DNA of 32,000 nt, taken from Horticoccus luteus. Its GTDB lineage: Bacteria > Verrucomicrobiota > Verrucomicrobiia > Opitutales > Opitutaceae. The translations under genes were made by a program, and so were the position numbers. Below are positions 1-15,905 of this stretch, one piece after another. Within the stretch, counting starts at the first letter, position 1; each line of letters starts with the position of its first letter. The stretch lies in assembly GCF_019464535.1 (NCBI RefSeq), contig NZ_CP080507.1, forward strand, positions 2,220,001 to 2,252,000. The letters run 5' to 3'. The notes beneath the pieces were generated by a model, which was not told the origin of the DNA, ran no database searches, and saw only the letters and a program-made list of their open reading frames with translations.

Positions 1-67
1 CGTAGGCGAGAAATCTCCGACAGAAGAGGAGGGCGCGAATCACAAAGGCCGCTTTGAGTTTGCTCAT
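1..67 (-). CDS. 5' end (22 codons, MSKLKAAFVIRALLFCRRFLAY...) of an unidentified gene that runs off the window
   Basis: The minus-strand ATG at 67..65 overlaps the TGA stop (66..64) of the upstream amidotransferase as ATGA. This is the same coupling pattern seen through the rest of the operon. It is too short to assign a product. Confidence 0.3.
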   Translation of the reverse strand, partial: MSKLKAAFVIRALLFCRRFLAY

Positions 68-3950: not shown

Positions 3951-5056
3951 GCGCGCGCGTAGAACGCCTTGATTTGCTCGACCACGTAGCCGATCATCTC
4001 ATCCGTCATCTCCGGATAAATCGGAAGCGAGAGGATGCGCGACTGATGCGAGTAGGCCACAGGGAAGTCCGCCGGCTTATGGCCCAGATAGGCGTAGGCC
4101 TTCAGGAACGGCAGCGCGACCGGATAGTTCAACACCGTGGGCACGCCGCGCTCCTTGAGGAAGGCCATCAAGGCATCGCGTTTCTCCGTGCGGATCACGT
4201 AGAGGTGATACACATGGTCCCGGCCGGGGGCAACGGGCGGCGTGATGACGTCGCCCACGCCGGCAAGGAGCTCGTTGTAGCGGGCGGCGATGCGCTGGCG
4301 CGCCGCGGTCCACTTCTGCAAGTGCGGCAGCTTCACGTTGAGCACCGCCGCCTGCAGGCCGTCGAGTCGGCTGTTGATGCCCTCGATCACATGTTCGCCC
4401 TTGGTGAGGCCGCCGTGGCGGGCATAGCACGTCATCTGGCGCGCGAGTTCGGCGTCGGAGGTCAGGATTGCGCCGGCGTCGCCGTAGGCCCCGAGGTTCT
4501 TGCCGGGATAGAACGAGAAGGTAGACACCCGGCCGAACGTGCCGGTGAGTTTGCCTTGAAAACGCGCAAGGTGCGACTGCGCACAGTCCTCCATCACCCA
4601 CAGATTGTGTTGTTTCGCGATCTCCATGATCGGGCCCATGTCGGCCGCCTGGCCGTAGAGGTGCACCGGGATGATGCCCTTCGTGCGCGACGTGATCATC
4701 GCGGCGATCAACGTGGGATCGATAGTGAACGTGTCCCTGTCGGTATCGACGAACACGACGCGGGCGCCGGTCTGCGTGATGGTCTCGGAGGTCGCGATCC
4801 ACGAGTGTGCGGTCGTGATGACCTCGTCTCCCGGCCCGACTCCCATGATCTTCATGGCGATGTAGAGGGCATCCGTGCCATTGGCGCACGAGATGCAATG
4901 CGGCACACCGAACAATGCGGCATAGTCCTGCTCGAATTTGTCGACGAAGGGACCGCGCACATAGGCGCTGTCCCGGATGACCCGGGCAATGGCCGCATCC
5001 ATCTCCGACTTAATCGTGAGATACTGGGCGTGTAGGTCGACGAACTGGATTTTCAT
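3947..5056 (-). CDS. wbpE: DegT/DnrJ/EryC1/StrS-family PLP aminotransferase (WbpE-like)
   Basis: 369 aa from MKIQFVDLHAQY. The PLP-lysine context FSFYPGKNLGAYGDAG is present. The ATG at 5056 overlaps the upstream stop (ATGA). The gene is flanked by WbpD-like and WbpB-like genes. The track ORF extended to 5326 is an upstream stop-free run. Confidence 0.88.
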   Translation of the reverse strand: MKIQFVDLHAQYLTIKSEMDAAIARVIRDSAYVRGPFVDKFEQDYAALFGVPHCISCANGTDALYIAMKIMGVGPGDEVITTAHSWIATSETITQTGARVVFVDTDRDTFTIDPTLIAAMITSRTKGIIPVHLYGQAADMGPIMEIAKQHNLWVMEDCAQSHLARFQGKLTGTFGRVSTFSFYPGKNLGAYGDAGAILTSDAELARQMTCYARHGGLTKGEHVIEGINSRLDGLQAAVLNVKLPHLQKWTAARQRIAARYNELLAGVGDVITPPVAPGRDHVYHLYVIRTEKRDALMAFLKERGVPTVLNYPVALPFLKAYAYLGHKPADFPVAYSHQSRILSLPIYPEMTDEMIGYVVEQIKAFYARA

Positions 5057-5556
5057 GACGAAACTTCGGATGCGGATGAGAGGGCGCGCAGGAGCTGCGC
5101 GGGATTTCCAACGTAGATGCCGGCCTCGGTGATGTCCTTCGTGACAACGGCGCCGGCACCGATGACGACGTGGTCGCAGATGCGCACCGGCAGGATCGTG
5201 GCGTTCGAGCCGATGCTGACGTGGTGGCCGATCGTCGTGGAGCGCCACTGCGTCTTGTCGCCGCGGGCCGGCCCGCCGGTGGCGAACGTGTCGTTGATGA
5301 ACATGACGCCGTGGCCGATGAAGCAATCGGTGCCGATCGTGACGAGTTCGCAGATGAACGCGTGCGACTGCACCTTAGTGCGGGCGCCGATCTGCACATC
5401 CTTCTGGATTTCGACGAACGGTCCGATGAATACGCCCTCACCGATCTCGCAGCCGTAGACGTTCACAGGTTCGACGACCGTCACATTTGCTGCGAAGCGA
5501 ACGTTGACGATGCCACTTTGGAAACGGCGGGCAGGGGCCGAGTTGGGCGTGCTCAT
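5053..5556 (-). CDS. wbpD: Left-handed beta-helix (hexapeptide) N-acetyltransferase (WbpD/WlbB-like)
   Basis: 167 aa with repeated hexapeptide pattern (IGEGVFIGPFVEI.., IGHGVMF, IGSNATI, IGAGAVV). It sits between the oxidoreductase and the aminotransferase, as in wbpB-D-E. Confidence 0.85.
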   Translation of the reverse strand: MSTPNSAPARRFQSGIVNVRFAANVTVVEPVNVYGCEIGEGVFIGPFVEIQKDVQIGARTKVQSHAFICELVTIGTDCFIGHGVMFINDTFATGGPARGDKTQWRSTTIGHHVSIGSNATILPVRICDHVVIGAGAVVTKDITEAGIYVGNPAQLLRALSSASEVSS

Positions 5557-5558
5557 TG

Positions 5559-6560
5559 TCAGCGGCTGGCTTGCTCCAGAATGCGCACGACCTTGCGGGC
5601 GTGGTCGATGCCGGTGAGCGGCGTCACGTTGCGGCGCACGCAGTCGACGAAATGATCGGCTTCGGCGCGGAGCGGCTCGATGAAATTGATCTGCGGCAGG
5701 AGGATGTCGCCCGACCGGTAGGAAAACTGCGCCGACATGGGCTTGTCGTAGTCCATGTTTTGGCCGAGCACGGCCTTGCGATCGATGCCCTTGTCGTAGA
5801 TCGCAATCTTGTCCTCCGCAGCGTCGTCGTAGACCACCATCTTTTTCGATCCGACGACCACCATCTTGCGCGTCTTCTGCGGGTCGAGCCAGCTCACGTG
5901 GATGTTGGCCATGACCTTTTGCGGATACTTGATATTGAGGAACACGACGTCCTGCACGCCAGGCTGGATGAAATCCATGCCATGACGGGTGACTTCCTCC
6001 GGCTCCGGGTCGCCGAGCCAGTATTGGATGATGGCGATGTCGTGCGGGGCAAAATTCCAGAGCGCATCAATGTCCGAACGGATGCGCCCGAGGTTGAGCC
6101 GCTGGCTGTAGATGTAGCGCAGTTCGCCGAGTTCGCCGCCCTCGATCATCTTGCGCACGTAGCGCACTGCCGAGTTGTAGAGGAAGGTGTGGCCGACCAT
6201 CACTTGCAGCTTCCGCTCGGCGGCGAGCTGCGCGAGTTCGTCCACCTCAGCCACCGTCGTGGCGAGAGGTTTCTCAACGAAGATATGCTTGCCGGCGAGC
6301 AACGCCCGGCGGCCGAGCTCGAAGTGATTGCCGGCGGGGGTGGCGATCACCACCGCATTGATCTCGCGATCGTTCAGGATCGCGTCGATTTCCGCAATCG
6401 CGTGGGTCGCCGGAAAGCTTTGCGCGACGAACTTGCGCCGCTCTTCGCTGAGGTCCGCGAGATACTTCACGCGGCAACCCTTCACCGCAGAAAAATTCCG
6501 CAACAGATTTGGTCCCCAATAGCCGCAGCCGATTTGGGCAATCTCGATAGTGCTACTCAT
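5559..6560 (-). CDS. wbpB: Gfo/Idh/MocA-family NAD-dependent oxidoreductase (WbpB-like)
   Basis: 333 aa with an N-terminal Rossmann motif IAQIGCGYWGPN. This is the first biosynthetic gene of the operon, and its stop lies 2 nt before the wbpD-like ATG. Confidence 0.85.
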   Translation of the reverse strand: MSSTIEIAQIGCGYWGPNLLRNFSAVKGCRVKYLADLSEERRKFVAQSFPATHAIAEIDAILNDREINAVVIATPAGNHFELGRRALLAGKHIFVEKPLATTVAEVDELAQLAAERKLQVMVGHTFLYNSAVRYVRKMIEGGELGELRYIYSQRLNLGRIRSDIDALWNFAPHDIAIIQYWLGDPEPEEVTRHGMDFIQPGVQDVVFLNIKYPQKVMANIHVSWLDPQKTRKMVVVGSKKMVVYDDAAEDKIAIYDKGIDRKAVLGQNMDYDKPMSAQFSYRSGDILLPQINFIEPLRAEADHFVDCVRRNVTPLTGIDHARKVVRILEQASR

Positions 6561-6659
6561 AAGTGCTGGCTCAACACGGCTTCGCCCCGTCGCTTCCGAA
6601 TAGGAAAACGACGAGGCGCAGGGGGGATGGCGTCGGGACGAGTTTCGCCCCGCGGCTTC

Positions 6660-7202
6660 TTACGCCGGCGCTGGACCGAGGAGGGTTTTCAGGATCGGCA
6701 GCAGGAGCCACATCTGGCGGCGCCAGGTCTCCAGCAACTTCACCTGATCTTCCGAAAAAGCCGCTCCCGCCGCATCCGGCGTCGCTCTCGCCAGCTCCCG
6801 CAATCGCGCCATCCGCGACTCGTCCGCGCTCACCAGGGGCTCCACTTTTTCCCGCAGGATGCCACTCACCAGACGCCGCAGCCGCGTCTCCGGCCAAAAC
6901 AGTTCCCGTCGATCCCCCGAGGTCCCTGCACTCCGCACCGCCCCCAGCGATTGCAACAACCGCAACCCCTGGCTCGCCGAGCCTTTGCTGATGTCCAGCC
7001 GTTGCGCGATGTCCGTGAAACCCAACGGCACCGGCGACGCAAACAGCAGCCCGTAAATCTGCCCCACCGACCGCGGGATCCCCACCACCCCCACCAAATC
7101 CGTGAAAAACTCCCCGCACGCCTGCTCGAACTCCGGAGACACCACCGCGCTCGCGTCGCTCGGACGCACAGCTTCAGCAGTTTCATCAGGCAGCAGTTTC
7201 AT
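6660..7202 (-). CDS. GbsR/MarR-type winged-helix transcriptional regulator
   Basis: 180 aa from MKLLPDET (ATG at 7202). The winged-HTH core GIPRSVGQIYGLLFASPVPLGFTDIAQRLDISKGSASQGLRLLQSLGAVR is typical of COG1510/GbsR-like regulators. Same strand as the sugar operon and about 100 bp upstream of it. Confidence 0.7.
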   Translation of the reverse strand: MKLLPDETAEAVRPSDASAVVSPEFEQACGEFFTDLVGVVGIPRSVGQIYGLLFASPVPLGFTDIAQRLDISKGSASQGLRLLQSLGAVRSAGTSGDRRELFWPETRLRRLVSGILREKVEPLVSADESRMARLRELARATPDAAGAAFSEDQVKLLETWRRQMWLLLPILKTLLGPAPA

Positions 7203-7318
7203 GGCAGGTCGGCGACGAAGCCGACAACGATTGGCAAGTTCAAGCAAATTTGAACTAGATTACGCCAAATCCGCCCATTCCCGGTCACCCCTCGCAGAGA
7301 ATCACCGACCGCACGTCT

Positions 7319-7547
7319 GACGATCAACGACTAATGCTCATCGAATACCTGCGTCCCGCCCATTCGTGTGCATTCGCGTCCATTCGTGACTTAAATGAGC
7401 TATTTCACAGAAGGTAACAGAGGTTTCACGCTTCTGCCCCATCTGTGTTCATCTGTGTCCATCTGTGGTTAAAAATGCATTTTCGATCTTCGCCCCAGAG
7501 ATCACGGAGAGCCCAACCCGAGTTCACGGAGTAAACCTCAAGGCCCC
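7319..7547. repeat. One copy of the composite repeat unit (modules a-b-c-d-e)
   Basis: The modules occur in this order: GATCAACGACTAATGCTCATCGAATACC; 3x phased CATTCGTG; TTTCACAGAAGGTAAC; 3x phased CATCTGTG ending GGTTAAAAATG; CTTCGCCCCAGAG..CACGGAG..GAGTTCACGGAG. The same module order recurs at 11240-11346 and 12440-12644. Confidence 0.85.
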
Positions 7548-7799
7548 GAAGGGTTGGTGTTGGTCGCCGGAGGCTTCATCGTGGCGACCAGAGGGTTTGC
7601 GTTAGTCGCCGGAGGGTTCGTGTTGGTCCCCGGAGGGTTAGTGTTTGTCGCCCGAGGGTTTGTCGTGACGACCGGAGGGTTAGTGTTGGTCGCCACGAGG
7701 TTAGTGTTGGTCGCCGGAGGGTTGGTGTTGGTCGCCGGAGGGTTTGTGTTGGTCGTCAGAGGCTTTGTCGTGGCGACCGGAGGGTTAGTGTTTGTCGTC
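7548..7799. repeat. 21-bp tandem repeat, 12 units (consensus GGAGGGTTAGTGTTGGTCGCC)
   Basis: I parsed 12 contiguous 21-mers. Units 2, 6 and 11 are a variant (..GTCGTGGCGACC) whose GGCGACC is complementary to the GGTCGCC of the majority units. The repeat is stop-free on both strands. The minus frame reads TNTNPPA heptads. Confidence 0.9.
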
Positions 7800-8107
7800 A
7801 CACGCAACCTCGTAAGGCTCCCGACGCTCATCGCGCCACCCACTTGCAGTTAACCGCCGCTTTTCACCGACTCTCCCGCCCGCGCATGCACATCCATCGC
7901 GCGAAATGAGCGGTTTATATTCCGGCCCGTTTACCGCGACGGCCCCAATCTTCGCACCGTTTTTAACAGGAGGTAACGAAGTGAAGGAAGAGCCCAGGCC
8001 TTCCGAGCGTCCGAGCCGACGCCAAGAGAAAAGTGCAGATTCTCGATCCCTGCGTTGGGTTAGCGAATAACGATCAACGAGTAACCCTCAGCGGAACACC
8101 GCTTCCC

Positions 8108-8864
8108 CATCTGTGCTCATCTGTGTCCATCTGTGGTTAAAAATGCATTTCGCTCTTCGCCACAAAGGCGCCCCAGCCTATTCGTGTCGATTCGTGTCCA
8201 TTCGTGGTAAAAAAAGCATTTCACAGAAAGTAACGCAGGTAAGAAAGAAGCACTCGGCTCCATACGTTCAACTAACGAATAGCGATCAACGAACACCGAT
8301 TCACGCGTCTGCCAATCCGTGTTAATCCGTGTTCATCTGTGGTTAAAAATGGTTTTTGTTCTTCGCCACAGAAGCCCCCCACTCATTCGTGTCGATTCGT
8401 GTCCATTCGTGGTTAAAAAAATAAGAGTATTTCAAAGAAAGTAACGCAGGTAAGAAAGAAGCGCTCGGCCACGTGCGTTCGACTCACGAGTAACGAACAC
8501 CGATTCACGCGTCTGCTAATCTGTGCTCATCTGTGTCCATCTGTGGTTAAAAATGGTTTTTGTTCTTCGCCACAGGAGCCCCCCACTCATTCGTGTCTAT
8601 ACGTGTCCATTCGTGGTTAAAAAAATAAGAGCATTTCACAGAAAGTAACGCAGGTAAGAAAGAAGCAGCGGCCACGTGCGTTCGACTCACAGTAGCGATC
8701 AACGAACACCGATTCACCCGTCTGCCAATCCGTGTTCATCTGTGCCCATCTGTGGTTAAAAATGGTTTTTGTTCTTCGCCACAGCCCCCCCCCACCCATT
8801 CGTGTCGATTCGTGTCCATTCGTGGTTAAAACAAAAGTATTTCACGTGTTCATCTGTGGTTAAC
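8108..8864. repeat. Head-to-tail tandem array of about 205-bp composite units (about 3.7 units, with a degenerate partial unit upstream from about 7960)
   Basis: Unit starts are at 8108, 8314, 8518 and 8727 (spacing 206, 204 and 209). The anchor CATCTGTGGTTAAAAATG lies at 8128, 8334, 8538 and 8747. The whole unit is conserved, not just short repeats. Confidence 0.9.
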
Positions 8865-8885
8865 GTCAGTCTCGTTCAGTCGAGT

Positions 8886-9485
8886 TTAGCGTAAATCAGC
8901 GTGATGAGCGGGAGAACTCCTGCCCGCCGCCCCCAAGTCGCTCAACGCAATCGCACCGTGCCAGCCGCGCTGCACATGCACAGCCCCCAGTTGAAAGCCG
9001 CTTTGCGGGAAACTCGCCGGCATATCGACCAGCACGATCTCTTTCAGCCCAAAGTCCGCCGCGCGGATGTCGCGCAACCGGGCCTTCGTCCACACGTGAT
9101 TGATGGTGAGCAAAAACACGACGTTGTCGGCGTGTTGCATCGCGTGTTGGAGGAAACGCCGGATCTCGCTCCAAGGCGGGTTGGTGATGATCCAGTCAAA
9201 CGTGTCCGTGCACGCGAAAAAGTCGCGCCCCGCCTTGATCTCCGTCCAAGCGACGCTCTCCCCTGCGCGGGCTCGCCGCTGCCCGCCAAGCCGGCCGTTC
9301 GCACGGCTGTCCGCCGTGGCGCCCCGCAGATGCGCGCGGAGGGCGCGATAAAAATTCCCTTCGCCGCGGCACGGTTCCAGAATGCGCCCCCGCGGCTGGA
9401 AATGCTGCACCAGCCGGCGGGCGAGTGCCGGAGGCGTCTGCACATCGTCGTTGCTGACGTAATCGCGATTGGGCTGGAGATGCAT
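8886..9485 (-). CDS. Small gamma-class (Eco57I/TaqI-like motif order) N6-adenine DNA methyltransferase, orphan
   Basis: 199 aa. Motif X DVQTPPALARRLV, motif I ILEPCRGEGNF and motif IV ITNPPW occur in that order. A 25-aa Arg/Gly/Ala-rich insert lies between motifs I and II. No recognisable large target-recognition domain and no adjacent endonuclease. Confidence 0.65.
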   Translation of the reverse strand: MHLQPNRDYVSNDDVQTPPALARRLVQHFQPRGRILEPCRGEGNFYRALRAHLRGATADSRANGRLGGQRRARAGESVAWTEIKAGRDFFACTDTFDWIITNPPWSEIRRFLQHAMQHADNVVFLLTINHVWTKARLRDIRAADFGLKEIVLVDMPASFPQSGFQLGAVHVQRGWHGAIALSDLGAAGRSSPAHHADLR

Positions 9486-9670
9486 GAGGTCGGGGTGCGC
9501 AAATACCGCCCCACCGCGTCGCCTTTGGCAAGGCCGCCCACGTCGCTCTCCGTTCGCTTATAAGAAGCCTCCAGGCTCCTTCGCCTTGGTCTCGGCGCTC
9601 GTCGAGCACCGGTGCGCTCGGTGTGAGAGCGCTTAATTACGCCGAGTAAACGGGCCCCGCGCCGCTCCAT

Positions 9671-9707
9671 AAAAAAGCCCGACCGCGCTGGCCGGCGCGA
9701 TCGGGCT
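9671..9707 (-). terminator. Rho-independent terminator downstream of the 129-aa ORF
   Basis: On the minus strand: AGCCCGATCGCGC-CGGCCA-GCGCGGTCGGGCT (13-bp stem with one mismatch) followed by TTTTTT. It starts 19 nt after the stop codon at 9726. Confidence 0.8.
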
Positions 9708-9725
9708 GCCTGTCACTCGCGGAGC

Positions 9726-10115
9726 TTAAGCCGCCGCGGGCGTCTCGTCAGGAGTGTTCTCCTCCGAGGCTGTATCGGTTTGCGATGGCCGGCGCGCATC
9801 CTTGCGTTTGCCGCCTGCCTTCTCATAGGCGTCACTGTTCCGTCCATACACGGCGCCGACGGCGGCGAGCATACGGTCGGACCAATCGGCCAGTTTGCGT
9901 TCCGCCACCAGGAAACGCGAGCGCGCTTCATCGGTGCCGGACAGCAACGTATTATACGTTCCGAGTTTCGTGCGCGCATCGCTGATGACGGCACGGTAGG
10001 CGGCGAGCGTGAGCTCACCTCCGAGTTCCAGCGGATCGGCGATCGAGGTGATCGCCGCCGCGCGGGCTTCGGCCCGGTCGAGATCGACCGAGCGCATTTT
10101 CTTCATTCTAGCCAT
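9726..10115 (-). CDS. Hypothetical protein, 129 aa, predicted all-helical with a charged Ser/Thr/Glu/Pro-rich tail
   Basis: ATG at 10115 preceded by GGGGATTGGGGTAAGT. A strong terminator follows. GC-rich third positions. No family recognised. A truncated paralogous 3' end lies at 10546-10665. Confidence 0.6.
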   Translation of the reverse strand: MARMKKMRSVDLDRAEARAAAITSIADPLELGGELTLAAYRAVISDARTKLGTYNTLLSGTDEARSRFLVAERKLADWSDRMLAAVGAVYGRNSDAYEKAGGKRKDARRPSQTDTASEENTPDETPAAA

Positions 10116-10545
10116 ACTTACCCCAATCCCCGGGGCGGAGGGTCGAGGTTCTGACTCAGAGTGAGCCAGTTATCTCCTCAACGGATTAATGTCGTGAGTC
10201 CGAAGTAGCAACACGTCAAACGATTATAACGGAATACTTATCGACGGGTTATTATCCATTTCGGCCGACGCATACCCATGCTTAAAAATGGGTTCACTTT
10301 CGAACGCCAGAACGCGTCGGCGGTATGTTTTGAACGACGCCCCCACCTCCGCGGTCTCTACAAGCCCTACCCAAGGGCTTCGAAGGGCTTCAAAGCACGT
10401 CGGATCACTCGGGAGCACGTGGGAGCGCGTGAGAGAAATCGGGCAGACCAGGCAAGGGGATAGCTAGGGCTTGGCAAGGGCATGGGTAGGGCTTGGTAAG
10501 GGCTCGACAAGTAAACGACCGATGTTAACGGTGCGGCCGCATCTG

Positions 10546-10665
10546 TCAGATGGCCGTCTGAGGGGTGTCCGGAGCTTTCTTTCTTGAGGAGGTTTCGGTT
10601 TGCGATGGTCGCGGCGGGTGCCCTCGGGTGCCCGCCGCGCTTCGTTTCCGCCCCTGGCGTCCGAT
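10546..10665 (-). pseudogene. Relic 3' end of a paralog of the 129-aa ORF, truncated by the repeat family
   Basis: The minus frame reads ..GRKRSAAGTRGHPPRPSQTETSSRKKAPDTPQTAI*, compared with ..GGKRKDARRPSQTDTASEENTPDETPAAA* in the intact gene. The shared DNA core TCGGTTTGCGATGG occurs at about 9775 and about 10594. Upstream, the frame runs straight into repeat module CGATCTTCGCCACAG. Confidence 0.55.
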
Positions 10666-10713
10666 CTTCGCCACAGAACGCACCGGGATTTCAAGCCGAG
10701 TCCCCCGCCGATT

Positions 10714-10819
10714 CTTCAACCACGAATAAACACGAACGGACACGAATCCGAGCCAGCGTTAGGCTGACCGACTCCACCGGATTTCATTCGTGTCTATTCG
10801 TGTCCATTCGTGGTTAAAC
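10714..10819. repeat. Imperfect 106-bp palindrome (about 34-bp arms), 5' CTTCAAC ... GTTAAAC 3'
   Basis: The left arm CTTCAACCACGAATAAACACGAACGGACACGAAT pairs with the right arm ATTCGTGTCTATTCGTGTCCATTCGTGGTTAAAC. About 29 of 35 positions pair, and the mismatches recur at about 10-bp intervals. Near-identical copies lie at 10967-11071 and 12131-12243. Confidence 0.85.
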
Positions 10820-10966
10820 TAAAACTACTTCCGAGAAGGTAACGGAGGTCACGAAAAAGCAGGCCACATCGGGTATCTGTGAGCATCTGTGGTTAAAAAA
10901 TGCCTTTCTACCCTCTCCACAGAGTCCACGGAGGCGCGATCCGAGTTCACAGAGCAACTGCCGATT

Positions 10967-11071
10967 CTTCAACCACGAATAAACACGAAGGGACACGAAT
11001 CCGAGCCACATTAGGCTGACCGACTCCACCGGATTTCATTCGTGTCTATTCGTGTCCATTCGTGGTTAAAC
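10967..11071. repeat. Second copy of the imperfect palindrome (105 bp)
   Basis: Same arms and same loop (CCGAGCCA..TTAGGCTGACCGACTCCACCGGATTT) as the copy at 10714-10819. Confidence 0.85.
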
Positions 11072-11390
11072 TAAAACCGCTTCACAGAAGGTAACGAAGT
11101 CCACGAAGAAGCAGGCCACATCGGGTATCTGTGAGCATCTGTGTCCATCTGTGGTTAAAAAAATGCCTTTCTACCGCCACCACAGAGTCCACGGAGATCC
11201 AATCCGAGTTCACGGAGAGTCCGAGTCTGGCTCTCCCCGTTTGGTTACGATCAACGATTAACGCTCATCGAATACCGGCGTCCCGCACTTTCGTGTCTAT
11301 TCGTGTACATTCGTGGTTAAAACCTTCCGACTATCTGTGGTAAACCCCGTCGCATCACTCGCGCCAAGCACCGTCGCGAAGGACAGTCGC

Positions 11391-11765
11391 TCAGTTGAAA
11401 AGTGCGACGAGCGCTGCGAGGTGCGCATCGTCGTGCTCTATTTCCACGCCATGCTCCCAAGCGCAGGCCGCAATCAATACGTCCGCCCCGGGCACCGTGA
11501 GTCCGCTCGCCCGGGCCCGCCGCGCCAGTTCGCGCGAGCGACTCCACACGGCGTCCGTCGTCGCCAAAAGGGTAATATCGGCCTCCAAGGCCTCCATTTG
11601 CTTGCGCTCCGCCGCCCCGCGCAGCCCGTTCCATAGCTCCAACCGCACGAAATCGCACCACCCGGCTTCCCCCGTTTGCATGAGGGCCTGTACACGGACC
11701 CGCACCGCGACATCTCCATCCCGGCGCAGAGCGTCAATCCAACTGGACGTGTCGATGAGCTTCAA
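11391..11765 (-). CDS. vapC: PIN-domain ribonuclease toxin VapC
   Basis: 124 aa with the N-terminus (M)KLIDTSSWI containing the conserved Asp, plus further acidic residues (LELW, GADVLIAA, EHDD). TTG start 3 nt after the vapB stop. Confidence 0.85.
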   Translation of the reverse strand: MKLIDTSSWIDALRRDGDVAVRVRVQALMQTGEAGWCDFVRLELWNGLRGAAERKQMEALEADITLLATTDAVWSRSRELARRARASGLTVPGADVLIAACAWEHGVEIEHDDAHLAALVALFN

Positions 11766-11768
11766 GGC

Positions 11769-11972
11769 TCAGTCGGTCTCCCGCATCCGGTTCAGGTCGT
11801 TGCGTGTCAACATATCCTGGAACGTGCCCATCCGGGCCGCGAGGCGGGTCAAACGTTGCCGCCGGTTGAAATCCGCGACCGCCAGGCTCACTGCCTCCGT
11901 CTTGGTTTTCGCGCCAGTGTGACGAATCGCTTCCGCCAGCTCATCCTCGGGAAGGTCAATGGTCGTCTTCAT
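11769..11972 (-). CDS. vapB: VapB-family antitoxin (DUF2191-like)
   Basis: 67 aa, MKTTIDLPEDELAEAIRHTGAKTKTEAVSLAVADFNRRQR, the typical VapB signature. The track ORF extended to 12191 runs into repeat sequence and is not credible upstream of this ATG. Confidence 0.85.
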   Translation of the reverse strand: MKTTIDLPEDELAEAIRHTGAKTKTEAVSLAVADFNRRQRLTRLAARMGTFQDMLTRNDLNRMRETD

Positions 11973-11990
11973 GCTTCTAAAATGACCCCA

Positions 11991-12005
11991 ATTCGGCATC
12001 CGAAT
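11991..12005 (-). promoter_or_regulatory. Palindrome ATTCGG-N3-CCGAAT upstream of vapB (putative autoregulatory operator)
   Basis: Perfect 6-bp arms lying 19-33 nt upstream of the vapB ATG, next to a TTGATT hexamer on the minus strand. Type II TA operons are commonly autoregulated at such palindromes. Confidence 0.35.
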
Positions 12006-12077
12006 CAAGGGTCTTTCGCTGCAATCCTCGATCATCCCCCCAGGCGTAGCTGGGCGGTTAAGAGTCCAGTTCATCCA

Positions 12078-12644
12078 CTCTTCGCCCAGAGTCCACGGAG
12101 GCAAACTCCGATCTGGTCCTACCGCCAATTCTTCAACCACGAATAAACACGAACGGACACGAATCCGAGCCAGAGAACAAATCACGTTCACGGGATTTCA
12201 TTCGTGTGTATTCGTGTCCATTCGTGTCCATTCGTGGTTGAACTAAAACCGCTTTACAGAAGGTAAAGAAGCCCGCGCTCACGTGCGTTCGGCTCACGAA
12301 TAACGAGTAACGAACACCGATACACGCGTCTGCCAATCCGTGTTCATCTGTGGCCATCTGTGGTTAAAAAATGCCTTTTCAACCGTCGCACAGAACCCAC
12401 GGACGACCAATCCGAGTTCACGGACTGAGTCTCGATTCTCGCTCCGCTCGTTTGGTTACATTCAACGATTAACGCTCATCGAATACCGGCGTCCCGCACA
12501 TTCGTGTATATTCGTGTCCATTCGCGGTTAAATAGGTATTTTACAGAAGGTAACGGAGGTCACGAAGAAGCGCCGACAGTGGTGCTTGGCTGTTCCCTAG
12601 CCGTCTTATCTGTGTAAATCTGTGTCCATCTGTGGTTAAAAAAC
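12078..12644. repeat. Composite repeat array C (about 2.5 units, including a third palindrome at 12131-12243 ending GTTGAAC)
   Basis: Contains the same modules as arrays A and B: CCACGGAG, TTCAACCACGAATAAACACGAACGGACACGAAT, 4x CATTCGTG, ACAGAAGGTAA, ACGAGTAACGAACACCGA, CATCTGTGGTTAAAAAATG, and GATTAACGCTCATCGAATACCGGCGTCCCGC. Confidence 0.88.
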
Positions 12645-12685
12645 GCCCTCCCTTCCACCCATGGGCGTCGATTAGCTGCGCGCCT

Positions 12686-14011
12686 TCAACCCATCGTCCG
12701 CGTCGCTTCGACCGGGGCCGCGATCCCGCTGCTCATCGCGCGCTCCTGTTCCACGCGCAGCCGCGCGGCGTTGCGATGTGCGTCAAAGTTTTCCTCCACC
12801 CATTTTCTGCCCCCCGCGCGCAGGCGCTCGCACAACACATCATCCGTGGCGATCCGCCGTAGCGCGGCCACCCATGCCGACGGCTGCTCCACGTCGGCGA
12901 TCAACCCCGTCACTTCATCCGTGACCGCCTCACGGGTCCCCGCGACCGGCGAACTCACCACCACCACGCCGATCGACATCGCCTCCGGAATCACGTTGGG
13001 CAACCCGTCGCGGTCGCCACTCGGGGCGATCACGCCCGTGTGCAACAACGCATCGGCCCACGAGAGCTGATCCCACACCTCGTGGTGCGGCAAATGGCCG
13101 GTGAACGTCACCTGCGCGCCGATGCCGAGTTCACCCGCCGCCCGGTCGAGGGACGCCCGCAACGGCCCTTCTCCCACGATGCGCGCCTCAAATTCAATCC
13201 CCGCAGCGCGCAAGGCCGCGTAAACCCGCAACTGGTGTTCCAAGCCCTTTTTCTCCACCAGCCGCGCGACGCATACCAAGTGCAGACGCCGCCGCGTGGC
13301 CCGCAAACGTTTGAATTTCGGCAACACGTCGAGTCCGCGCCGGATGCACACGATGCGCTCCGCCGGCCCGCCGCGCGCCACGAGCGCCGCCCGCGCCATC
13401 TCCGTCGAGGTATGCACAAACGCCGCGCCCTGCAGCTTCTCCCGCAGCCACCAGTCGCCGCCATGCTCAAACAAATCGTAGGCATGCGCCGCGGCGCTGT
13501 AGCGATGCCCATCGATGCGCCACAAAATCCACGCCGCCGTCGCGGGCGCGCCGCCCCACGCCGCATGCACGAGGGCCGGCTGCAAGCGGCGAAAATGCCG
13601 CGCAAACACACACGCGAAACCGGCACCCAGCATGTTCTCCCAGAAATTCAGCCACGACGGCGCCCGCCGCGTGCACAACCCCCGCAGCAATTCGCGCAAC
13701 ACCTCCGGCCGCCGCCACGATTCATACGGGATCAGCCAGACCAACGTGCACAGCCGCCACTTGTTGAACCGCGTGACCGGCAGGCCCCGAAATGAGGTTT
13801 GCCCGCCCCACATCGAATAGAGGCGGAGATCCGCGCCCTGCGCGCGCATGGCGACGATCTCGCGCTGGAGAAACGTCTCCGTGGACTTCGGAAACGTAGT
13901 GAACAGGTAGGCGACGGTGCGGTTGCGCGAGGACAAGCCGCCACGTTCTAGCCGCCGCCGCCCAAGCGCCAAGCGCGAAGCGCGCGCGTTCACGGTTCTC
14001 GCGCCCTCCAA
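12686..14011 (-). CDS. GT4-family glycosyltransferase (WcaL-like)
   Basis: N-terminal VAYLFTTFPKSTETFLQREI and C-terminal GT-B signature VARLVEKKG...GEGP...GLPNVIPEAMSIGVVVVSS..GTREAV.D..TG. The start is uncertain: the track start is TTG at 14011, and an in-frame GTG lies at 13993. Confidence 0.8.
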   Translation of the reverse strand: MEGARTVNARASRLALGRRRLERGGLSSRNRTVAYLFTTFPKSTETFLQREIVAMRAQGADLRLYSMWGGQTSFRGLPVTRFNKWRLCTLVWLIPYESWRRPEVLRELLRGLCTRRAPSWLNFWENMLGAGFACVFARHFRRLQPALVHAAWGGAPATAAWILWRIDGHRYSAAAHAYDLFEHGGDWWLREKLQGAAFVHTSTEMARAALVARGGPAERIVCIRRGLDVLPKFKRLRATRRRLHLVCVARLVEKKGLEHQLRVYAALRAAGIEFEARIVGEGPLRASLDRAAGELGIGAQVTFTGHLPHHEVWDQLSWADALLHTGVIAPSGDRDGLPNVIPEAMSIGVVVVSSPVAGTREAVTDEVTGLIADVEQPSAWVAALRRIATDDVLCERLRAGGRKWVEENFDAHRNAARLRVEQERAMSSGIAAPVEATRTMG

Positions 14012-14084
14012 GCTCCGCGTAACGCGCGCGCGAAACCGCTCTCCCCTGTGGGCGGGGTGCCCTCACCCCGCAACCCCGCAACGC

Positions 14085-15332
14085 CTACGCTCCCCCGCAC
14101 ACGCGCGCGTGCACGTCGACGATGGCGTCTCCGATGTAATCCGCATCCTCGTCGGTGTAGAGCCAGCCGATGCCGATCGCCACAAAACGCTGGGTCAGCT
14201 CTTCCGTGCGCGGAAAATCCTCCGCGCGGTAGCCCGGCGCCGGCCAGGGTTTGAACTCCCGAAAAGGCGACAACGCCGGCACCTGCGCCCGCCCCGTTTT
14301 CACGTAGTCGCGCCCGTAGTGCGGATACGTCCCCGTGCGCTGCCCGCAGTTCACGTTGCGCGCATCCAAGTCCGCGCGAAACGCCGCCACTTGCTCCGCA
14401 TCCCGCAGGAAAAAGTATAACTCGAAACCAAAATCTCCGTCCGGATCGGGCACGCGGCGGAGCGTGAGGCCCGGCAGCGCGGCGATTTTGGCGAGCACGC
14501 GGCGGCTCAGCCGGCGACAATGCGCCTTCATCGCGTCGCACTTGCGCAACTGCGCCAGCGCCACCGCCGCGGTGAGTTCCGACATGCGATACTGCCCGCC
14601 CGCAAACGCCGGCTCCTGCGCCGGCGCGATGGCCGCATGATACGGCCGGTAACTGCCCAAATCGTGCTGCCGCACCGCGCGTTCATAGAGGCGGTGATCG
14701 CGCATGACGAGCAAGCCGCCCTCGCCGGCCGTCATCACTTTGTTGTTTTGAAAACTAAACGTCCCGATATCGCCCCAGCTCCCCACGCGCCGCCCGCGAT
14801 ACGTCACGCCGGCCGACTGCGCGCAGTCTTCGATCACGTAGATGCCGCGCCGATGGGCCTCCTGCATGATCGGCTCCATCGCCGCGGCCACGCCTTGATA
14901 GTGCACCACGATCACGGCCCGCGTGCGGGGTGTGGCCAGACGCACAATCTCCTGCGGGGCCAGGTTCAACGTCTCGTCGATCTCGGCGAGCACCGGTCGC
15001 GCACCCACGCGCACGATGGCGGTGAAACACGAAATCCAGCTCCACGCCGTCACGATCACTTCATCGCCCGGGCCGATGCCGGCGGCCGCAAGGGCCACTT
15101 CCAGCGCCGCGGTGCCGCTGCTCACCGCGAGCGCGTAATCCACCTCCACCCAGGCGCGAAATTCCTTTTCCAGCTCCGCGGCCATCGGCGGCGGTTGCGC
15201 GGGATTCATCCCGTAATAACGGAACAGCTCCTTGCGCCGCAGCACGTCGAGCACCAGTCGCTCTTCCTCGGCGCCGATCGCGACGGCACCGAGCCCTTGC
15301 ACCGGACGCGGACGAAGTGGATTCACACTCAT
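14085..15332 (-). CDS. DegT/DnrJ/EryC1/StrS-family PLP aminotransferase
   Basis: 415 aa with AVSSGTAALEVAL and the PLP-lysine context FSFQNNKVMTAGEGG. ATG at 15332. Confidence 0.85.
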   Translation of the reverse strand: MSVNPLRPRPVQGLGAVAIGAEEERLVLDVLRRKELFRYYGMNPAQPPPMAAELEKEFRAWVEVDYALAVSSGTAALEVALAAAGIGPGDEVIVTAWSWISCFTAIVRVGARPVLAEIDETLNLAPQEIVRLATPRTRAVIVVHYQGVAAAMEPIMQEAHRRGIYVIEDCAQSAGVTYRGRRVGSWGDIGTFSFQNNKVMTAGEGGLLVMRDHRLYERAVRQHDLGSYRPYHAAIAPAQEPAFAGGQYRMSELTAAVALAQLRKCDAMKAHCRRLSRRVLAKIAALPGLTLRRVPDPDGDFGFELYFFLRDAEQVAAFRADLDARNVNCGQRTGTYPHYGRDYVKTGRAQVPALSPFREFKPWPAPGYRAEDFPRTEELTQRFVAIGIGWLYTDEDADYIGDAIVDVHARVCGGA

Positions 15333-15434
15333 GGCGTTCTGTTTTGCGCGCCGCTCACGAAGCGCAAACTCATTCGCCCGACGCCGTCCAAGTCACGGCT
15401 CTTTCAATCCGTGCGGCGCCCGACCCGACCACTT

Positions 15435-15905
15435 CTAGGCGTGCATGCCTTCGCCGGAAGACTCGCGGGGGAAGCGCGAGGAAGCTCCGTCCGCGTCCCG
15501 CAAAAACGGCAACGCCTCGCCCTCGCCGCTGAAATCGCCATCCGTCCGCCAACCCAAGCGCCGCAACATCCCCATCCCTCGCGCGCCCGCGGCGGCGCCG
15601 CCGCAAAAGACGAACGCGAGCAACGCCCCCGCGCACCAAAGCCAATGACGGTCCGAGACCACGGCGAGCACGATGGCGCCCAACGCCAGGCCGGAGACAA
15701 CCCACTCGATCAACCGCTCGCCCGTCCAGCTGTGATCCAGCGCGCCTCGCTGCATGTCGTGCTCGGCGGCGTGTCGGCTCGAATGCGCCGCGTCGTCCAA
15801 GGCCCTCGCACGTCCACTTCCCCCGCACCCGGCCCCGAGCGCCGCCGTCGGGCCTTCGTTCGTCATTTTTCCGCCTTGAACTGCTTCCGCTGCCGCATTC
15901 TCCAT
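15435..15905 (-). CDS. Hypothetical small membrane protein (two predicted TM helices)
   Basis: 156 aa with the hydrophobic segments LIEWVVSGLALGAIVLAVV and WLWCAGALLAFVFCGGAAAGA. Third codon positions are strongly G/C. Same strand as the downstream aminotransferase. An alternative start lies at M14. Confidence 0.45.
   Translation of the reverse strand: MENAAAEAVQGGKMTNEGPTAALGAGCGGSGRARALDDAAHSSRHAAEHDMQRGALDHSWTGERLIEWVVSGLALGAIVLAVVSDRHWLWCAGALLAFVFCGGAAAGARGMGMLRRLGWRTDGDFSGEGEALPFLRDADGASSRFPRESSGEGMHA

What the first reader, a model, noticed from the sequence alone, without database searches (positions are those of the whole stretch)
7250..12685. Low-GC, repeat-partitioned accessory island inserted between two glycan-biosynthesis loci
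Both flanks (1-7202 and 12686-15905) are minus-strand sugar-modification operons in high-GC, densely coding sequence. Between them lie about 5.4 kb in which three arrays of one repeat family (7319-8864, 10663-11346, 12078-12644) alternate with two small minus-strand gene blocks. Those blocks are the methyltransferase with the 129-aa ORF, and vapBC. The array/cassette/array/cassette/array layout, with no recombinase in view, is not a standard IS, prophage or ICE architecture. It suggests either a recombination hotspot or a cassette-capturing structure.
Basis: partly seen in the sequence, partly recalled or inferred. Interest (0 to 1): 0.65.

Follow-up and report, generated by a model that had tools for sequence, protein, structure and literature searches.

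The report
Pile-up of miniature inverted-repeat elements
The interval is a junction between two sugar-coat gene clusters of an Opitutaceae bacterium, not one inserted island; it has been overrun by about 22 copies of a tiny repeat found in many bacterial phyla, whose full-length form brackets a small uncharacterised nuclease-like gene (GxxExxY).

Summary
Three arrays of one repeat family (19 '+' and 3 '-' arms, all within 7362-12642, none elsewhere in 32 kb) alternate with two minus-strand gene blocks, and the window has no recombinase. The 'inserted low-GC accessory island / cassette capture' reading mostly fails. Low GC is confined to the arrays (0.47-0.52); the genes match the left flank. 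The methyltransferase-like gene is backbone: in three other Opitutaceae lineages it sits beside a homolog of the flanking HTH regulator and a collinear sugar operon, without repeats. The 129-aa ORF also recurs in glycan clusters next to toxin-antitoxin pairs. The repeat is a 35-nt arm, three phased 10-bp boxes (ATYYGTGTNC) ending GTGGTTAAA. It occurs in many phyla, always as outward-facing inverted pairs (41 versus 0), forming 57-160-nt palindromes. In longer versions it brackets a GxxExxY (PF13366, PD-(D/E)XK) gene: 15 of 51 metagenome hits. The arrays are best read as a BIME-like pile-up of ORF-less derivatives of this element, enlarged by tandem duplication, with vapBC lodged between two related arrays. 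How the element moves is unknown, and no description of it was found in the searchable literature.

The parts
6660..7247 (-). HTH regulator (195 aa, IclR/MarR-type HTH), first gene of the left sugar operon
   Evidence: Pfam HTH_IclR and MarR_2. Homologs at 32-44% identity lie next to the methyltransferase-like gene in L128, L130 and L132.
7319..8864 (+). Array 1. Ten '+' arms start at 7362, 7441, 8109, 8180, 8315, 8385, 8519, 8589, 8728 and 8798, with a one-box remnant at 8850-8863. ATTCGTG-type and ATCTGTG-type arms alternate. It fills the spacer between the methyltransferase-like gene and the HTH gene.
   Evidence: GC 0.517. The equivalent spacer is 155 nt and repeat-free in L132.
7546..7797 (.). 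Unrelated 21-bp x 12 tandem repeat (CCGGAGGGTTAGTGTTGGTCG) embedded in array 1
   Evidence: TRF. No Pfam hit for its ORFs. Absent from 205 other loci.
8099..8875 (+). 3.5 tandem copies of a 204-211-bp super-unit (ATCTGTG-type arm, 38-nt linker, ATTCGTG-type arm, about 100-nt linker)
   Evidence: TRF period 204. 8106-8629 matches 8312-8837 at 86.8% over 536 nt. Alignment A2.
8886..9485 (-). Methyltransferase-like gene (199 aa; EPxxGxG and TNPPW motifs). Conserved backbone gene, not a cassette.
   Evidence: More than 1000 homologs. Synteny in three lineages. Weak profile hit to M.TaqI, E 0.02. AF2 pLDDT 81; Foldseek top hits are M.TaqI, type I M subunits and TrmM.
9676..9707 (-). Intrinsic-terminator-like hairpin (13-bp GC-rich stem plus T run) just after the ORF129 stop
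9726..10115 (-). 129-aa ORF of unknown function, restricted to Opitutaceae
   Evidence: Five homologs only. In Rariglobus hedericola and JGI contigs it lies in glycan clusters after a 700-900-nt non-coding stretch and before a toxin-antitoxin pair.
10116..10662 (.). Non-coding stretch upstream of ORF129. Contains a different 11-bp-phased box run (AAGGGCTT/TAGGGCTT, 10360-10504).
   Evidence: GC 0.578. Not conserved at DNA level in relatives.
10663..11346 (+). Array 2. Two copies of a 253-263-bp super-unit, each with a complete palindromic mini-element (10713-10820, 10966-11072) and an ATCTGTG-type arm (10865, 11127). It also has an ATTCGTG-type arm at 11289 and a one-box remnant at 11331-11344.
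   Evidence: 10707-10954 matches 10960-11217 at 88.4%. DNA folds z -5.6 and -6.1.
11391..11972 (-). vapBC type II toxin-antitoxin pair (vapC PIN 11391-11765; vapB 11769-11972)
   Evidence: Pfam PIN 1.3e-10 and VapB_antitoxin 2.8e-10
12074..12644 (+). Array 3. One palindromic mini-element (12130-12244) plus arms at 12336, 12500 and 12608. Mosaic of array 2 and array 1 modules.
   Evidence: 11127-11321 matches 12336-12532 at 86%; 10705-10812 matches 12122-12226 at 87%; 8659-8762 matches 12265-12370 at 88%. Fold z -8.8.
12686..14011 (-). GT4 glycosyltransferase (WcaL-like), last gene of the right block. Synteny with relatives ends at its stop codon.

Best explanation
The interval 7250-12685 is a composite, not one acquired island.

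(1) Backbone. The methyltransferase-like gene heads the left sugar operon together with the HTH regulator. ORF129 is a lineage-specific gene that recurs in Opitutaceae glycan clusters.

(2) Repeat unit. The unit is a 35-nt 'arm': three helically phased 10-bp boxes ATYYGTGTNC ending in GTGGTTAAA. Across many phyla, two arms in outward-facing inverted orientation delimit a small element. The full-length form carries a GxxExxY (PF13366, minimal PD-(D/E)XK nuclease fold) gene packed tightly between the arms. ORF-less forms are 57-160-nt palindromes. Solo arms are remnants.

(3) The arrays. They are BIME-like pile-ups of such ORF-less elements and decayed arms. Each starts 22-46 nt downstream of the stop codon of a minus-strand gene (methyltransferase-like gene, vapC, GT). 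They were then enlarged by local tandem and segmental duplication (204-211-bp unit x 3.5; 253-263-bp unit x 2; array 3 is a mosaic copy of array 2).

(4) vapBC. It is an ordinary addiction module lodged between two related arrays, at a junction where other Opitutaceae carry other toxin-antitoxin pairs.

What is shown and what is inferred. Shown: the anatomy, the cross-phylum conservation, the strict arm polarity, the link to GxxExxY genes, multi-copy dispersal within one genome, the backbone synteny and the duplications. Inferred: that a GxxExxY protein encoded elsewhere in this genome recognises the arms and moves or copies the mini-elements in trans, possibly by acting on the hairpin or cruciform the arms can form. 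Also inferred: that the arrays themselves have no host function.
For: Arm family and confinement to the interval.

Conserved core of exactly three boxes plus GTGGTTAAA, with information content falling to zero on both sides.

Exact 22-mer in more than 120 stretches of species-representative genomes: Verrucomicrobiota, Lentisphaeria, Kiritimatiellae, Planctomycetota, Acidobacteriota, Armatimonadota, Chloroflexota, Bacteroidota, Nostocaceae, Chlamydiae, WOR-3.

Arm polarity: 41 outward-facing inverted pairs, 0 inward-facing. The two arms of a pair share the variable YY dinucleotide in 61 of 69 pairs.

Position: the outer end abuts gene starts or stops within about 0-35 nt in either orientation.

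Genes between the arms: GxxExxY in L035 and L049, and other small ORFs in L038 and L049.

Metagenome scan with the window's own left arm: 51 contigs. In 15 the arm directly flanks a GxxExxY gene, with the partner arm 392-412 nt away, always '-' on the left and '+' on the right.

Other GxxExxY genes carry the same architecture with variant boxes (ATCTGCG, TTTCGTG, CTCTGTG, CTTTGTG).

A 186-197-bp copy at 93-95% identity sits on four or more contigs of one MAG with unrelated flanks.

Three perfect palindromic elements in the window fold with z -5.6 to -8.8.

Tandem and segmental duplication.

Backbone synteny. ORF129 contexts. Coding composition equal to the left flank.

Box density: 32 double-box hits in 5.4 kb here, against at most 8 per 8 kb in 120 other loci.
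Against: - No GxxExxY gene lies in the 32-kb window. The rest of the genome could not be read, so a trans-acting partner in this organism is unproven.
- No target-site duplication was detectable.
- No empty-site versus filled-site comparison in close relatives was possible.
- Most '+' arms in the window have only badly decayed partner arms that do not fold better than shuffles. Much of the arrays may therefore reflect duplication rather than insertion.
- The link between GxxExxY and the arms is correlative. The arms could be expression or processing signals of that gene rather than transposition ends.
- Relatives used for synteny are distant (methyltransferase-like protein 64-65% identical, GT 82%).
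Confidence: 0.62

Rival explanations
1. Recombination hotspot through portable homology. The arrays act mainly as stretches of shared sequence at which RecA-dependent recombination inserts, deletes or swaps modules (vapBC, whole glycan blocks). For example, a circle carrying one array plus vapBC could integrate Campbell-style. This is compatible with the best explanation for where the repeats come from, but gives them a role.
For: - vapBC is bracketed by direct repeats of 100-200 nt at 82-88% identity in the same module order.
- Synteny with L125 ends at the GT stop.
- Different toxin-antitoxin pairs occupy equivalent junctions in L130, L186 and L188.
- GC skew changes from about 0 (1-10.5 kb) to about -0.2 (11.5-32 kb) inside the interval, whatever the gene strand.
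Against: - 82-88% identity in short patches is poor substrate for homologous recombination.
- The relatives with toxin-antitoxin pairs at this junction have no arms at all, so the variability does not depend on the arrays.
- No recombination products or polymorphism were observed.
Confidence: 0.18
2. Host regulatory or architectural DNA. The phased 10-bp boxes are binding sites for a host protein (the adjacent HTH regulator, a response regulator, or a nucleoid protein), possibly modulated by the neighbouring methyltransferase. Copy-number changes would tune or phase-vary expression of the sugar operons.
For: - 10-bp phasing places the boxes on one face of the helix.
- About 60 boxes lie between a DNA-methyltransferase-like gene and an HTH regulator.
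- In other genomes the arms often lie 6-15 nt upstream of start codons.
Against: - The same arms occur in unrelated contexts in many phyla and equally often point into gene 3' ends.
- They are always outward-facing pairs and bracket GxxExxY genes.
- Three lineages with the same methyltransferase-HTH pair have no boxes.
Confidence: 0.08
3. RNA-level element. The inverted arms matter in transcripts as long stems, for example as RNase III processing sites that excise or insulate the inserted ORF (as in ORF-bearing intervening sequences of 23S rRNA), or as stabilisers or terminators. The arrays would then be strings of such signals in the 3' UTRs of the minus-strand genes.
For: - Perfect 30-bp stems.
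- Each array starts 22-46 nt after a stop codon.
- A 23S_rRNA_IVP-family gene in L128 is bracketed by another kind of inverted box run.
- The two arms keep matching YY types.
Against: - No Rfam family matches.
- There are no T runs after the palindromes.
- Most arms in the window lack a pairing partner.
- Conservation of the exact box sequence across phyla is more than a stem requires.
Confidence: 0.08
4. Integron-like cassette array without an integrase (CALIN). Arrays would be recombination sites and gene blocks would be captured cassettes.
For: - The layout alternates repeats with small genes, including a toxin-antitoxin pair, as in chromosomal integrons.
- The outer end GTTAAAC/GTTGAAC of three arms fits the attC R' consensus GTTRRRY (consensus from own knowledge).
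Against: - No tyrosine recombinase in 32 kb.
- There are 3-11 arms per gap rather than one site per cassette.
- The arms are direct 10-bp repeats with perfect pairing and no bulged bases.
- The genes lie outside the arm pairs.
- The methyltransferase-like gene is syntenic backbone.
- The arms occur singly next to housekeeping genes in many phyla.
Confidence: 0.02
5. Replication origin or terminus region. The ATCTGTG-type arms carry TTAACCACA, one mismatch from the DnaA box TTATCCACA, and GC skew changes nearby.
For: Ten near-DnaA boxes, all on one strand, against 1.9 expected. Skew shift.
Against: - There is no perfect box and no dnaA, dnaN or par genes.
- The skew goes from 0 to negative, not negative to positive.
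- The nonamer is simply part of the arm. ATTCGTG-type and ATCCGTG-type arms lack it, and the arms are dispersed elsewhere.
Confidence: 0.02

Closest known systems
REP / BIME clusters and REPIN-RAYT systems (Enterobacteria, Pseudomonas; Bertels & Rainey 2011, PMC3116915; Di Nocera 2013, PMC3733652)
   Same: Both are short extragenic repeats that occur as inverted doublets forming hairpins. Solo copies are remnants. Both cluster in mosaic arrays with alternating repeat types and conserved linkers at gene 3' ends, and both are linked to a single small protein-coding gene flanked by the same repeats.
   Different: - Each arm here is not itself a palindrome but three direct, phased 10-bp boxes.
- There is no GTAG or CGTC tag.
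- The associated gene is a GxxExxY PD-(D/E)XK-fold protein, not an HUH tyrosine transposase (RAYT).
- The arm sequence is conserved across phyla, whereas REPs are lineage-specific.
Bacterial MITEs derived from insertion sequences (e.g. Correia elements, MITEAba12, PMC6382973)
   Same: Terminal inverted repeats, lengths of 60-200 nt, no ORF, intergenic location, many dispersed copies per genome, and longer relatives that carry a gene between the same ends.
   Different: No target-site duplication was found. The gene in the long form is about 125 aa with a nuclease fold, not a DDE or serine transposase. The ends are built from tandem sub-repeats.
Integron cassette arrays / CALIN
   Same: Alternation of repeats and small promoter-less-looking genes, including a toxin-antitoxin pair; no mobility gene within the array.
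   Different: There is no integrase. The repeats are not attC-like (no bulges, multiple per gap, direct sub-repeats). Genes lie outside the arm pairs. One 'cassette' is conserved backbone.
ORF-bearing intervening sequences of 23S rRNA (PF05635 23S_rRNA_IVP proteins; comparison from own knowledge)
   Same: A small selfish-looking ORF enclosed by long inverted repeats. A PF05635 gene flanked by inverted box runs sits in a related glycan cluster (L128).
   Different: The elements here lie between protein-coding genes, not in rRNA. RNase III excision is not shown. The box sequence differs.
vapBC type II toxin-antitoxin modules
   Same: RHH-type VapB plus PIN VapC, overlapping genes, typical size.
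   Different: Nothing unusual except the flanking arrays.

Membership tests
Integron / CALIN | Tyrosine recombinase IntI with attI and Pc next to the array (complete integron) | tested here: not met
   No Phage_integrase or any recombinase among the ORFs of the 32-kb window. The region beyond the window was not testable.
Integron / CALIN | One attC site per cassette: imperfect palindrome R''-L''...L'-R' with extrahelical bases | tested here: not met
   3-11 arms per gap. Arms are 3 x 10-bp direct repeats. The three palindromes pair perfectly without bulges. No attC covariance model was available.
Integron / CALIN | Cassette content variable between relatives | tested here: not met
   The methyltransferase-like gene is syntenic with the HTH gene and sugar operon in three lineages.
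REP/BIME, REPIN-RAYT | Unit is a 20-40-nt imperfect palindrome with a GTAG or CGTC tag | tested here: not met
   The arm consists of direct repeats ending in GTGGTTAAA and has no internal palindrome.
REP/BIME, REPIN-RAYT | Inverted doublets forming hairpins, with clusters in mosaic arrays in extragenic DNA | tested here: met
   41 outward-facing pairs against 0 inward-facing. Folds z -5.6 to -8.8. Mosaic arrays.
REP/BIME, REPIN-RAYT | Associated RAYT (HUH Y1 transposase) flanked by the repeats | tested here: not met
   The gene flanked by the arms is GxxExxY / PF13366.
IS-derived MITE | Terminal inverted repeats shared with an autonomous element | tested here: met
   The same arms flank about 400-nt GxxExxY elements and 57-160-nt ORF-less palindromes.
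IS-derived MITE | Target-site duplication | tested here: not met
   No direct repeat beyond the self-complementary TTAA. The central base of TTNAA is neither copied nor complementary above chance.
IS-derived MITE | Recognised transposase in the autonomous form | tested here: not met
   Only a roughly 125-aa PD-(D/E)XK-fold ORF lies between the arms. Its activity is unknown.
IS-derived MITE | Dispersed multi-copy within a genome | tested here: met
   Four or more contigs of MAG OH_PBrB_58 carry a 186-197-bp copy at 93-95% identity with unrelated flanks. Not testable for the window's own genome.
Genomic island / ICE / prophage | Integrase, tRNA or direct-repeat borders, and foreign composition of the genes | tested here: not met
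   No tRNA. No integrase. Gene GC and GC3 equal the left flank.
CRISPR array | Regular repeat-spacer periodicity with cas genes | tested here: not met
   Arm spacings of 24-164 nt are irregular. No cas genes. No Rfam hit.
Type II toxin-antitoxin vapBC | PIN toxin preceded by a small RHH/VapB antitoxin in one operon | tested here: met
   PF01850 and PF09957; the two genes are 3 nt apart.
N6-adenine (amino) methyltransferase, gamma class | Class I SAM-MTase fold with motif I (GxG) before motif IV (NPPY/W) | tested here: met
   EPCRGEGNF and TNPPW are invariant in the family. Profile hit to M.TaqI at E 0.02. Foldseek hits to M.TaqI and type I M subunits at E 2e-6, TM 0.5-0.64. No target-recognition domain is present, and substrate and activity are untested.
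GxxExxY-gene element (provisional, defined here) | Outward-facing inverted arms of three phased roughly 10-bp boxes ending GTGGTTAAA | tested here: met
   Three complete pairs and 16 further arms in the window.
GxxExxY-gene element (provisional, defined here) | GxxExxY ORF between the arms (autonomous form) | tested here: not met
   No GxxExxY ORF in the window. The window holds only ORF-less forms.

The most novel reading that the evidence does not exclude
The arms are the ends of a previously undescribed, cross-phylum class of minimal mobile element. Its only gene would be a roughly 125-aa PD-(D/E)XK nuclease (the GxxExxY family, whose function is still unknown). That nuclease would recognise phased 10-bp boxes or the cruciform they form and mobilise both itself and ORF-less derivatives. 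The window would then be an extreme landing pad or graveyard of such derivatives inside a glycan super-locus.
Probability: 0.3. Interest if true: 0.8.

Novelty: new variant of a known kind. Interest (0 to 1): 0.55.

Why it matters
For this locus, the result turns an apparent exotic 'cassette island' into ordinary conserved genes plus a toxin-antitoxin pair embedded in a repeat pile-up. It also corrects the assignment of the methyltransferase-like gene from accessory to backbone.

The wider point is the repeat itself. A 35-nt arm is conserved almost base for base from Verrucomicrobiota to Cyanobacteria and Bacteroidota, has strict polarity, and recurrently brackets GxxExxY genes. GxxExxY (PF13366 / TIGR04256) is a large family with no known function.

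The arm architecture gives a concrete hypothesis (a selfish element with nuclease-recognised ends) and a direct experiment: does the protein bind or cut the arms? If that holds, many 'hypothetical protein plus odd intergenic repeat' sites in environmental genomes would be explained. These repeats would also need masking in searches for promoters, small RNAs and CRISPR arrays.

Tried and rejected
- Rfam at gathering and at permissive thresholds: nothing. The only weak hit, mir-425, is an artefact of the palindrome.
- tRNA scan: none.
- Directional promoter hypothesis (TGGTTAAAAT as an extended -10 for leaderless mRNAs). Rejected because the outer end faces gene stops as often as gene starts (35 versus 38).
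- oriC / DnaA-box idea. Rejected (see rivals).
- Hairpins between a '+' arm and the decayed reverse boxes downstream: not better than shuffles.
- Target-site duplication search: negative.
- Exact-sequence look-ups of the window's own GT (twice: ORF-lister form and the database form P0001) and GFO proteins: not on record, so the source genome could not be read beyond the window.
- O. terrae and a JGI contig (GT 76-77% identical): no synteny on the relevant side and no arms.
- Plasmid collection BLAST with a palindromic element: no match.
- Viral contigs: only 15 hits in 2.9 million, so the arms are not phage-borne in any obvious way.
- PADLOC: no defence-system assignment beyond weak methyltransferase hits.
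- Literature: no paper contains the arm sequence. GxxExxY / PF13366 and PF05635 searches gave no description of flanking repeats. The REP survey that covers Verrucomicrobia describes GTAG-tagged repeats, which are different.
- Conservation of the 545-nt leader of ORF129 in relatives: none at DNA level.

Full report
OBSERVATION

The window comes from an Opitutaceae (Verrucomicrobiota) chromosome. Its own GT protein is recorded on a 4.32-Mb contig, and the nearest named homologs are from Opitutus, Horticoccus and 'Opitutaceae bacterium'.

The repeat family is real and highly non-random.
- CCATYYGTGGTTAA (up to 2 mismatches) gives 20 hits against 0.19 expected.
- The two-box pattern ATYYGTGNNNATYYGTG gives 44 hits against 0.16 expected.
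- Every hit lies in 7362-12639.
- A weight matrix built only from 134 arms of other genomes finds 19 '+' arms and 3 '-' arms (scores 19-58; best of 20 shuffles 3.5), and nothing outside 7362-12642.

Between the arrays lie:
- the 199-aa methyltransferase-like ORF (8886-9485, minus strand);
- the 129-aa ORF (9726-10115, minus strand);
- vapC/vapB (11391-11972, minus strand; PIN and VapB_antitoxin).

Both flanks are minus-strand sugar genes. From 16140 onward the genes are on the plus strand and are housekeeping: Fur, SufCBD, an Na/H exchanger, ClpP, a DinG-like helicase, RmlD and GDP-mannose dehydratase. There is no recombinase, transposase or tRNA in the 32 kb.

COMPOSITION

The low GC belongs to the arrays (0.517, 0.506 and 0.497; 0.469 for 8101-8864) and to the non-coding stretch 10116-10662 (0.578). 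The four genes have GC 0.61-0.65 and GC3 0.72-0.78. That is the same as the left-flank genes (GC 0.60-0.65, GC3 0.75-0.83) and only slightly below GT441 and DegT415 (0.67; GC3 0.81-0.83).

ARE THE GENE BLOCKS ACCESSORY?

The methyltransferase-like protein belongs to a family with more than 1000 members of about 165-200 aa. Three independent Opitutaceae lineages could be inspected.
- In each, the gene lies next to a homolog of the window's HTH regulator 6660-7247 (32-44% identity).
- In L132-L134 the order is methyltransferase-like gene, 155 nt, HTH, UDP-sugar dehydrogenase, DegT, GFO/IDH/MocA, then the flippase further on. This is collinear with the window read on the minus strand: methyltransferase-like gene, array 1 (1.6 kb), HTH195, GFO, DegT459, flippase.
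- None of these loci contains a single box.

Array 1 is therefore an expansion inside a conserved intergenic spacer, and the methyltransferase-like gene is backbone.

The methyltransferase assignment holds. EPxxGxG and TNPPW are invariant in the family. The profile hits M.TaqI at E 0.02. The AlphaFold model (pLDDT 81) matches M.TaqI, type I M subunits and TrmM.

ORF129 has only five homologs. In Rariglobus hedericola and in JGI contigs it again lies in glycan clusters. There it follows 700-900 nt of non-coding DNA and precedes a toxin-antitoxin pair: RHH-PIN in Rariglobus, MNT-HepT in the JGI contigs. L130 has two RHH-PIN pairs between its methyltransferase-like and HTH genes.

The closest relative of the right flank (L125; DegT 87%, GT 82% identical) keeps DegT-GT. 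After the GT stop it continues with a TonB-dependent receptor and has no arrays. No relative shows the window's two flanks adjacent.

The picture is a junction between two glycan blocks that is variable across the family and tends to collect toxin-antitoxin modules. It is not an island dropped between formerly contiguous loci.

WHAT THE REPEAT IS

Most are Verrucomicrobiota. Others are Lentisphaeria, Kiritimatiellae, Planctomycetota, Acidobacteriota, Armatimonadota, Chloroflexota, Bacteroidota, Nostocaceae, Chlamydiae and WOR-3.

Properties of the arms across these genomes:
- When 123 occurrences are aligned, information content is high for exactly three 10-bp boxes plus GTGGTTAAA and zero immediately outside.
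- Inverted pairs are always outward-facing: 41 pairs, mostly 57-160 nt apart, and none inward-facing.
- The two arms of a pair share the variable YY dinucleotide in 61 of 69 cases, against 36% expected from pooled frequencies. This is partly confounded by genome-specific usage.
- The outer end abuts a gene start (38 cases) or a gene stop (35 cases) within 100 nt, typically 0-35 nt. The arm is therefore not a directional promoter.
- In one MAG a 186-197-bp copy recurs at 93-95% identity on at least four contigs with unrelated flanks.

These are the properties of the ends of a small repeated element.

LINK TO A GENE

Longer versions carry an ORF packed between the arms.
- In L035 and L049 it is a GxxExxY protein (TIGR04256 at 1.8e-36 and 1.8e-41; PF13366). 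The start and stop codons overlap the innermost boxes.
- L038 and L049 carry other small ORFs of unknown family between the arms.
- I then scanned metagenome contigs with the window's own left arm (ACCACGAATAAACACGAANGGACACGAAT). It gave 51 contigs. In 15 of them the arm directly flanks a GxxExxY gene, with the partner arm 392-412 nt away, always '-' on the left and '+' on the right. The gene can sit in either orientation.
- Away from arms, GxxExxY genes are rare in the fetched DNA, roughly one per 100-150 kb.
- Other GxxExxY genes show the same architecture with variant boxes: ATCTGCG, TTTCGTG, CTCTGTG, CTTTGTG.
- A PF05635 (23S_rRNA_IVP) gene in L128 is bracketed by inverted runs of GCTGAAA boxes.

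No target-site duplication was found. I found no paper containing the arm sequence or describing repeats around GxxExxY genes. The GTAG-tagged REPs reported for O. terrae are a different family.

ANATOMY OF THE ARRAYS

The window holds three complete palindromic mini-elements: 10713-10820, 10966-11072 and 12130-12244. Their single-strand DNA folds have z -5.6, -6.1 and -8.8.

The other '+' arms are preceded by decayed reverse boxes, such as CACAGAAGGTAACGAAGTCCACGAAG or CCACAGAGTCCACGGAG. These do not fold better than shuffles. I read them as eroded left arms. On that reading the arrays are head-to-tail strings of mini-elements separated by 16-25 nt.

ATTCGTG-type and ATCTGTG-type arms alternate. 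Growth by duplication is evident:
- 3.5 copies of a 204-211-bp unit (87% identity);
- two copies of a 253-263-bp unit (88%);
- array 3 is a mosaic of array 2 modules (82-87%) with one array 1 module (88%).

Each array ends on the right with a '+' arm 22-46 nt from the stop codon of a minus-strand gene (the methyltransferase-like gene, vapC, GT441). This matches the cross-genome habit of abutting gene ends.

Box density here is 32 double-box hits in 5.4 kb. The maximum in 120 other 8-kb loci is 8. The locus is therefore an outlier for this family.

MECHANISM

Shown: the arm architecture and polarity, the cross-phylum conservation, the GxxExxY association, dispersal within one genome, local duplication and backbone synteny.

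Inferred:
- A GxxExxY nuclease encoded elsewhere in this genome acts on the arms, or on the hairpin or cruciform they form, and spreads ORF-less copies.
- The arrays are selfish DNA tolerated in non-essential spacers of a glycan super-locus.
- vapBC arrived independently.

This is the main gap.

The rivals are listed with their tests: a recombination hotspot through shared homology, host regulatory sites, RNA-processing stems, an integron-like array, and an origin or terminus. Relatives collect toxin-antitoxin pairs at this junction without any arms, however.

COMPARISON WITH KNOWN SYSTEMS

Functionally the arrays resemble BIME clusters of REP/REPIN elements and IS-derived MITEs. They are not members of either family.
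- The arm is not a tagged palindrome, and the associated gene is neither a RAYT nor a transposase.
- No target-site duplication is seen.
- The integron/CALIN criteria fail on the recombinase, the site structure, the number of sites per cassette and cassette variability.

VERDICT

The island and cassette-capture interpretation is largely replaced.

As a locus this is a repeat pile-up around ordinary genes. The repeat family and its tie to GxxExxY genes appear undescribed in the searchable literature and deserve follow-up. I rate novelty as 'new variant of a known kind' and interest at 0.55.

Noticed in passing
window 7546-7797: Twelve copies of a 21-bp tandem repeat (CCGGAGGGTTAGTGTTGGTCG) sit inside array 1, with GC 0.61 and a strong G-over-C skew. 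ORFs are open on both strands (TNTNPPA heptads on the minus strand). There is no Pfam hit, and the repeat is absent from 205 other loci.
   Followed up: partly
window 10360-10504: A second kind of phased box (AAGGGCTT/TAGGGCTT, 11-bp period, with an inverted copy AAGCCCTA upstream) lies in the non-coding stretch before ORF129. It may be the remnant of another box-flanked element.
   Followed up: no
window 1-10500 versus 11500-32000: GC skew is about 0 on the left and about -0.2 on the right, whatever the gene strand. The break falls inside the interval (about 10.5-11.5 kb). It could mark the edge of a horizontally exchanged glycan block, or the replication terminus.
   Followed up: partly
window 9676-9707 (minus strand): A strong intrinsic-terminator-like hairpin lies directly after the ORF129 stop. 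ORF129 and the methyltransferase-like gene are therefore probably separate transcripts.
   Followed up: no
L130 7838-9432; L186 10845-11461; L188 10579-11212: Other Opitutaceae carry toxin-antitoxin pairs (two RHH-PIN pairs; one RHH-PIN; MNT-HepT) right next to homologs of the methyltransferase-like gene or of ORF129 inside glycan clusters. This is a recurrent hotspot that does not depend on the repeats.
   Followed up: partly
L128 8690-9290; L186 15810-16157 and 19031-19520: PF05635 (23S_rRNA_IVP) and PF13366 genes sit inside glycan clusters of relatives. The L128 gene is bracketed by inverted runs of GCTGAAA boxes. The L186 PF13366 gene has a CTCTGTG x3 plus TTAAAAAA arm on one side.
   Followed up: partly
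L008, L021, L054, L083, L101, L112, L116 (Opitutaceae loci): A two-box arm is fused to a conserved GTAG-containing sequence (cagtgcGTAGccggtaggcgaagcc-ATTCGTGTCCATTCGTGGTTAAAA). This is apparently a composite of the GTAG-type REP reported for O. terrae and the arm.
   Followed up: no
window 7464-12639 (minus strand): Ten copies of TTAACCACA, one mismatch from the DnaA box TTATCCACA, all in ATCTGTG-type arms. Judged a by-product of the arm sequence.
   Followed up: yes
L035, L121, L144, L146, L152, L161, L170, L176, L178: GxxExxY elements or mini-palindromes sit immediately upstream of sugar-nucleotidyltransferase genes (MKV[VI]ILAAG...) in several genomes. This hints at a preference for, or persistence in, glycan loci.
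   Followed up: no
window 8886-9485: Compared with the family consensus, the window's methyltransferase-like protein carries an insertion of about 30 aa (around residues 50-80). The model has low confidence there.
   Followed up: no
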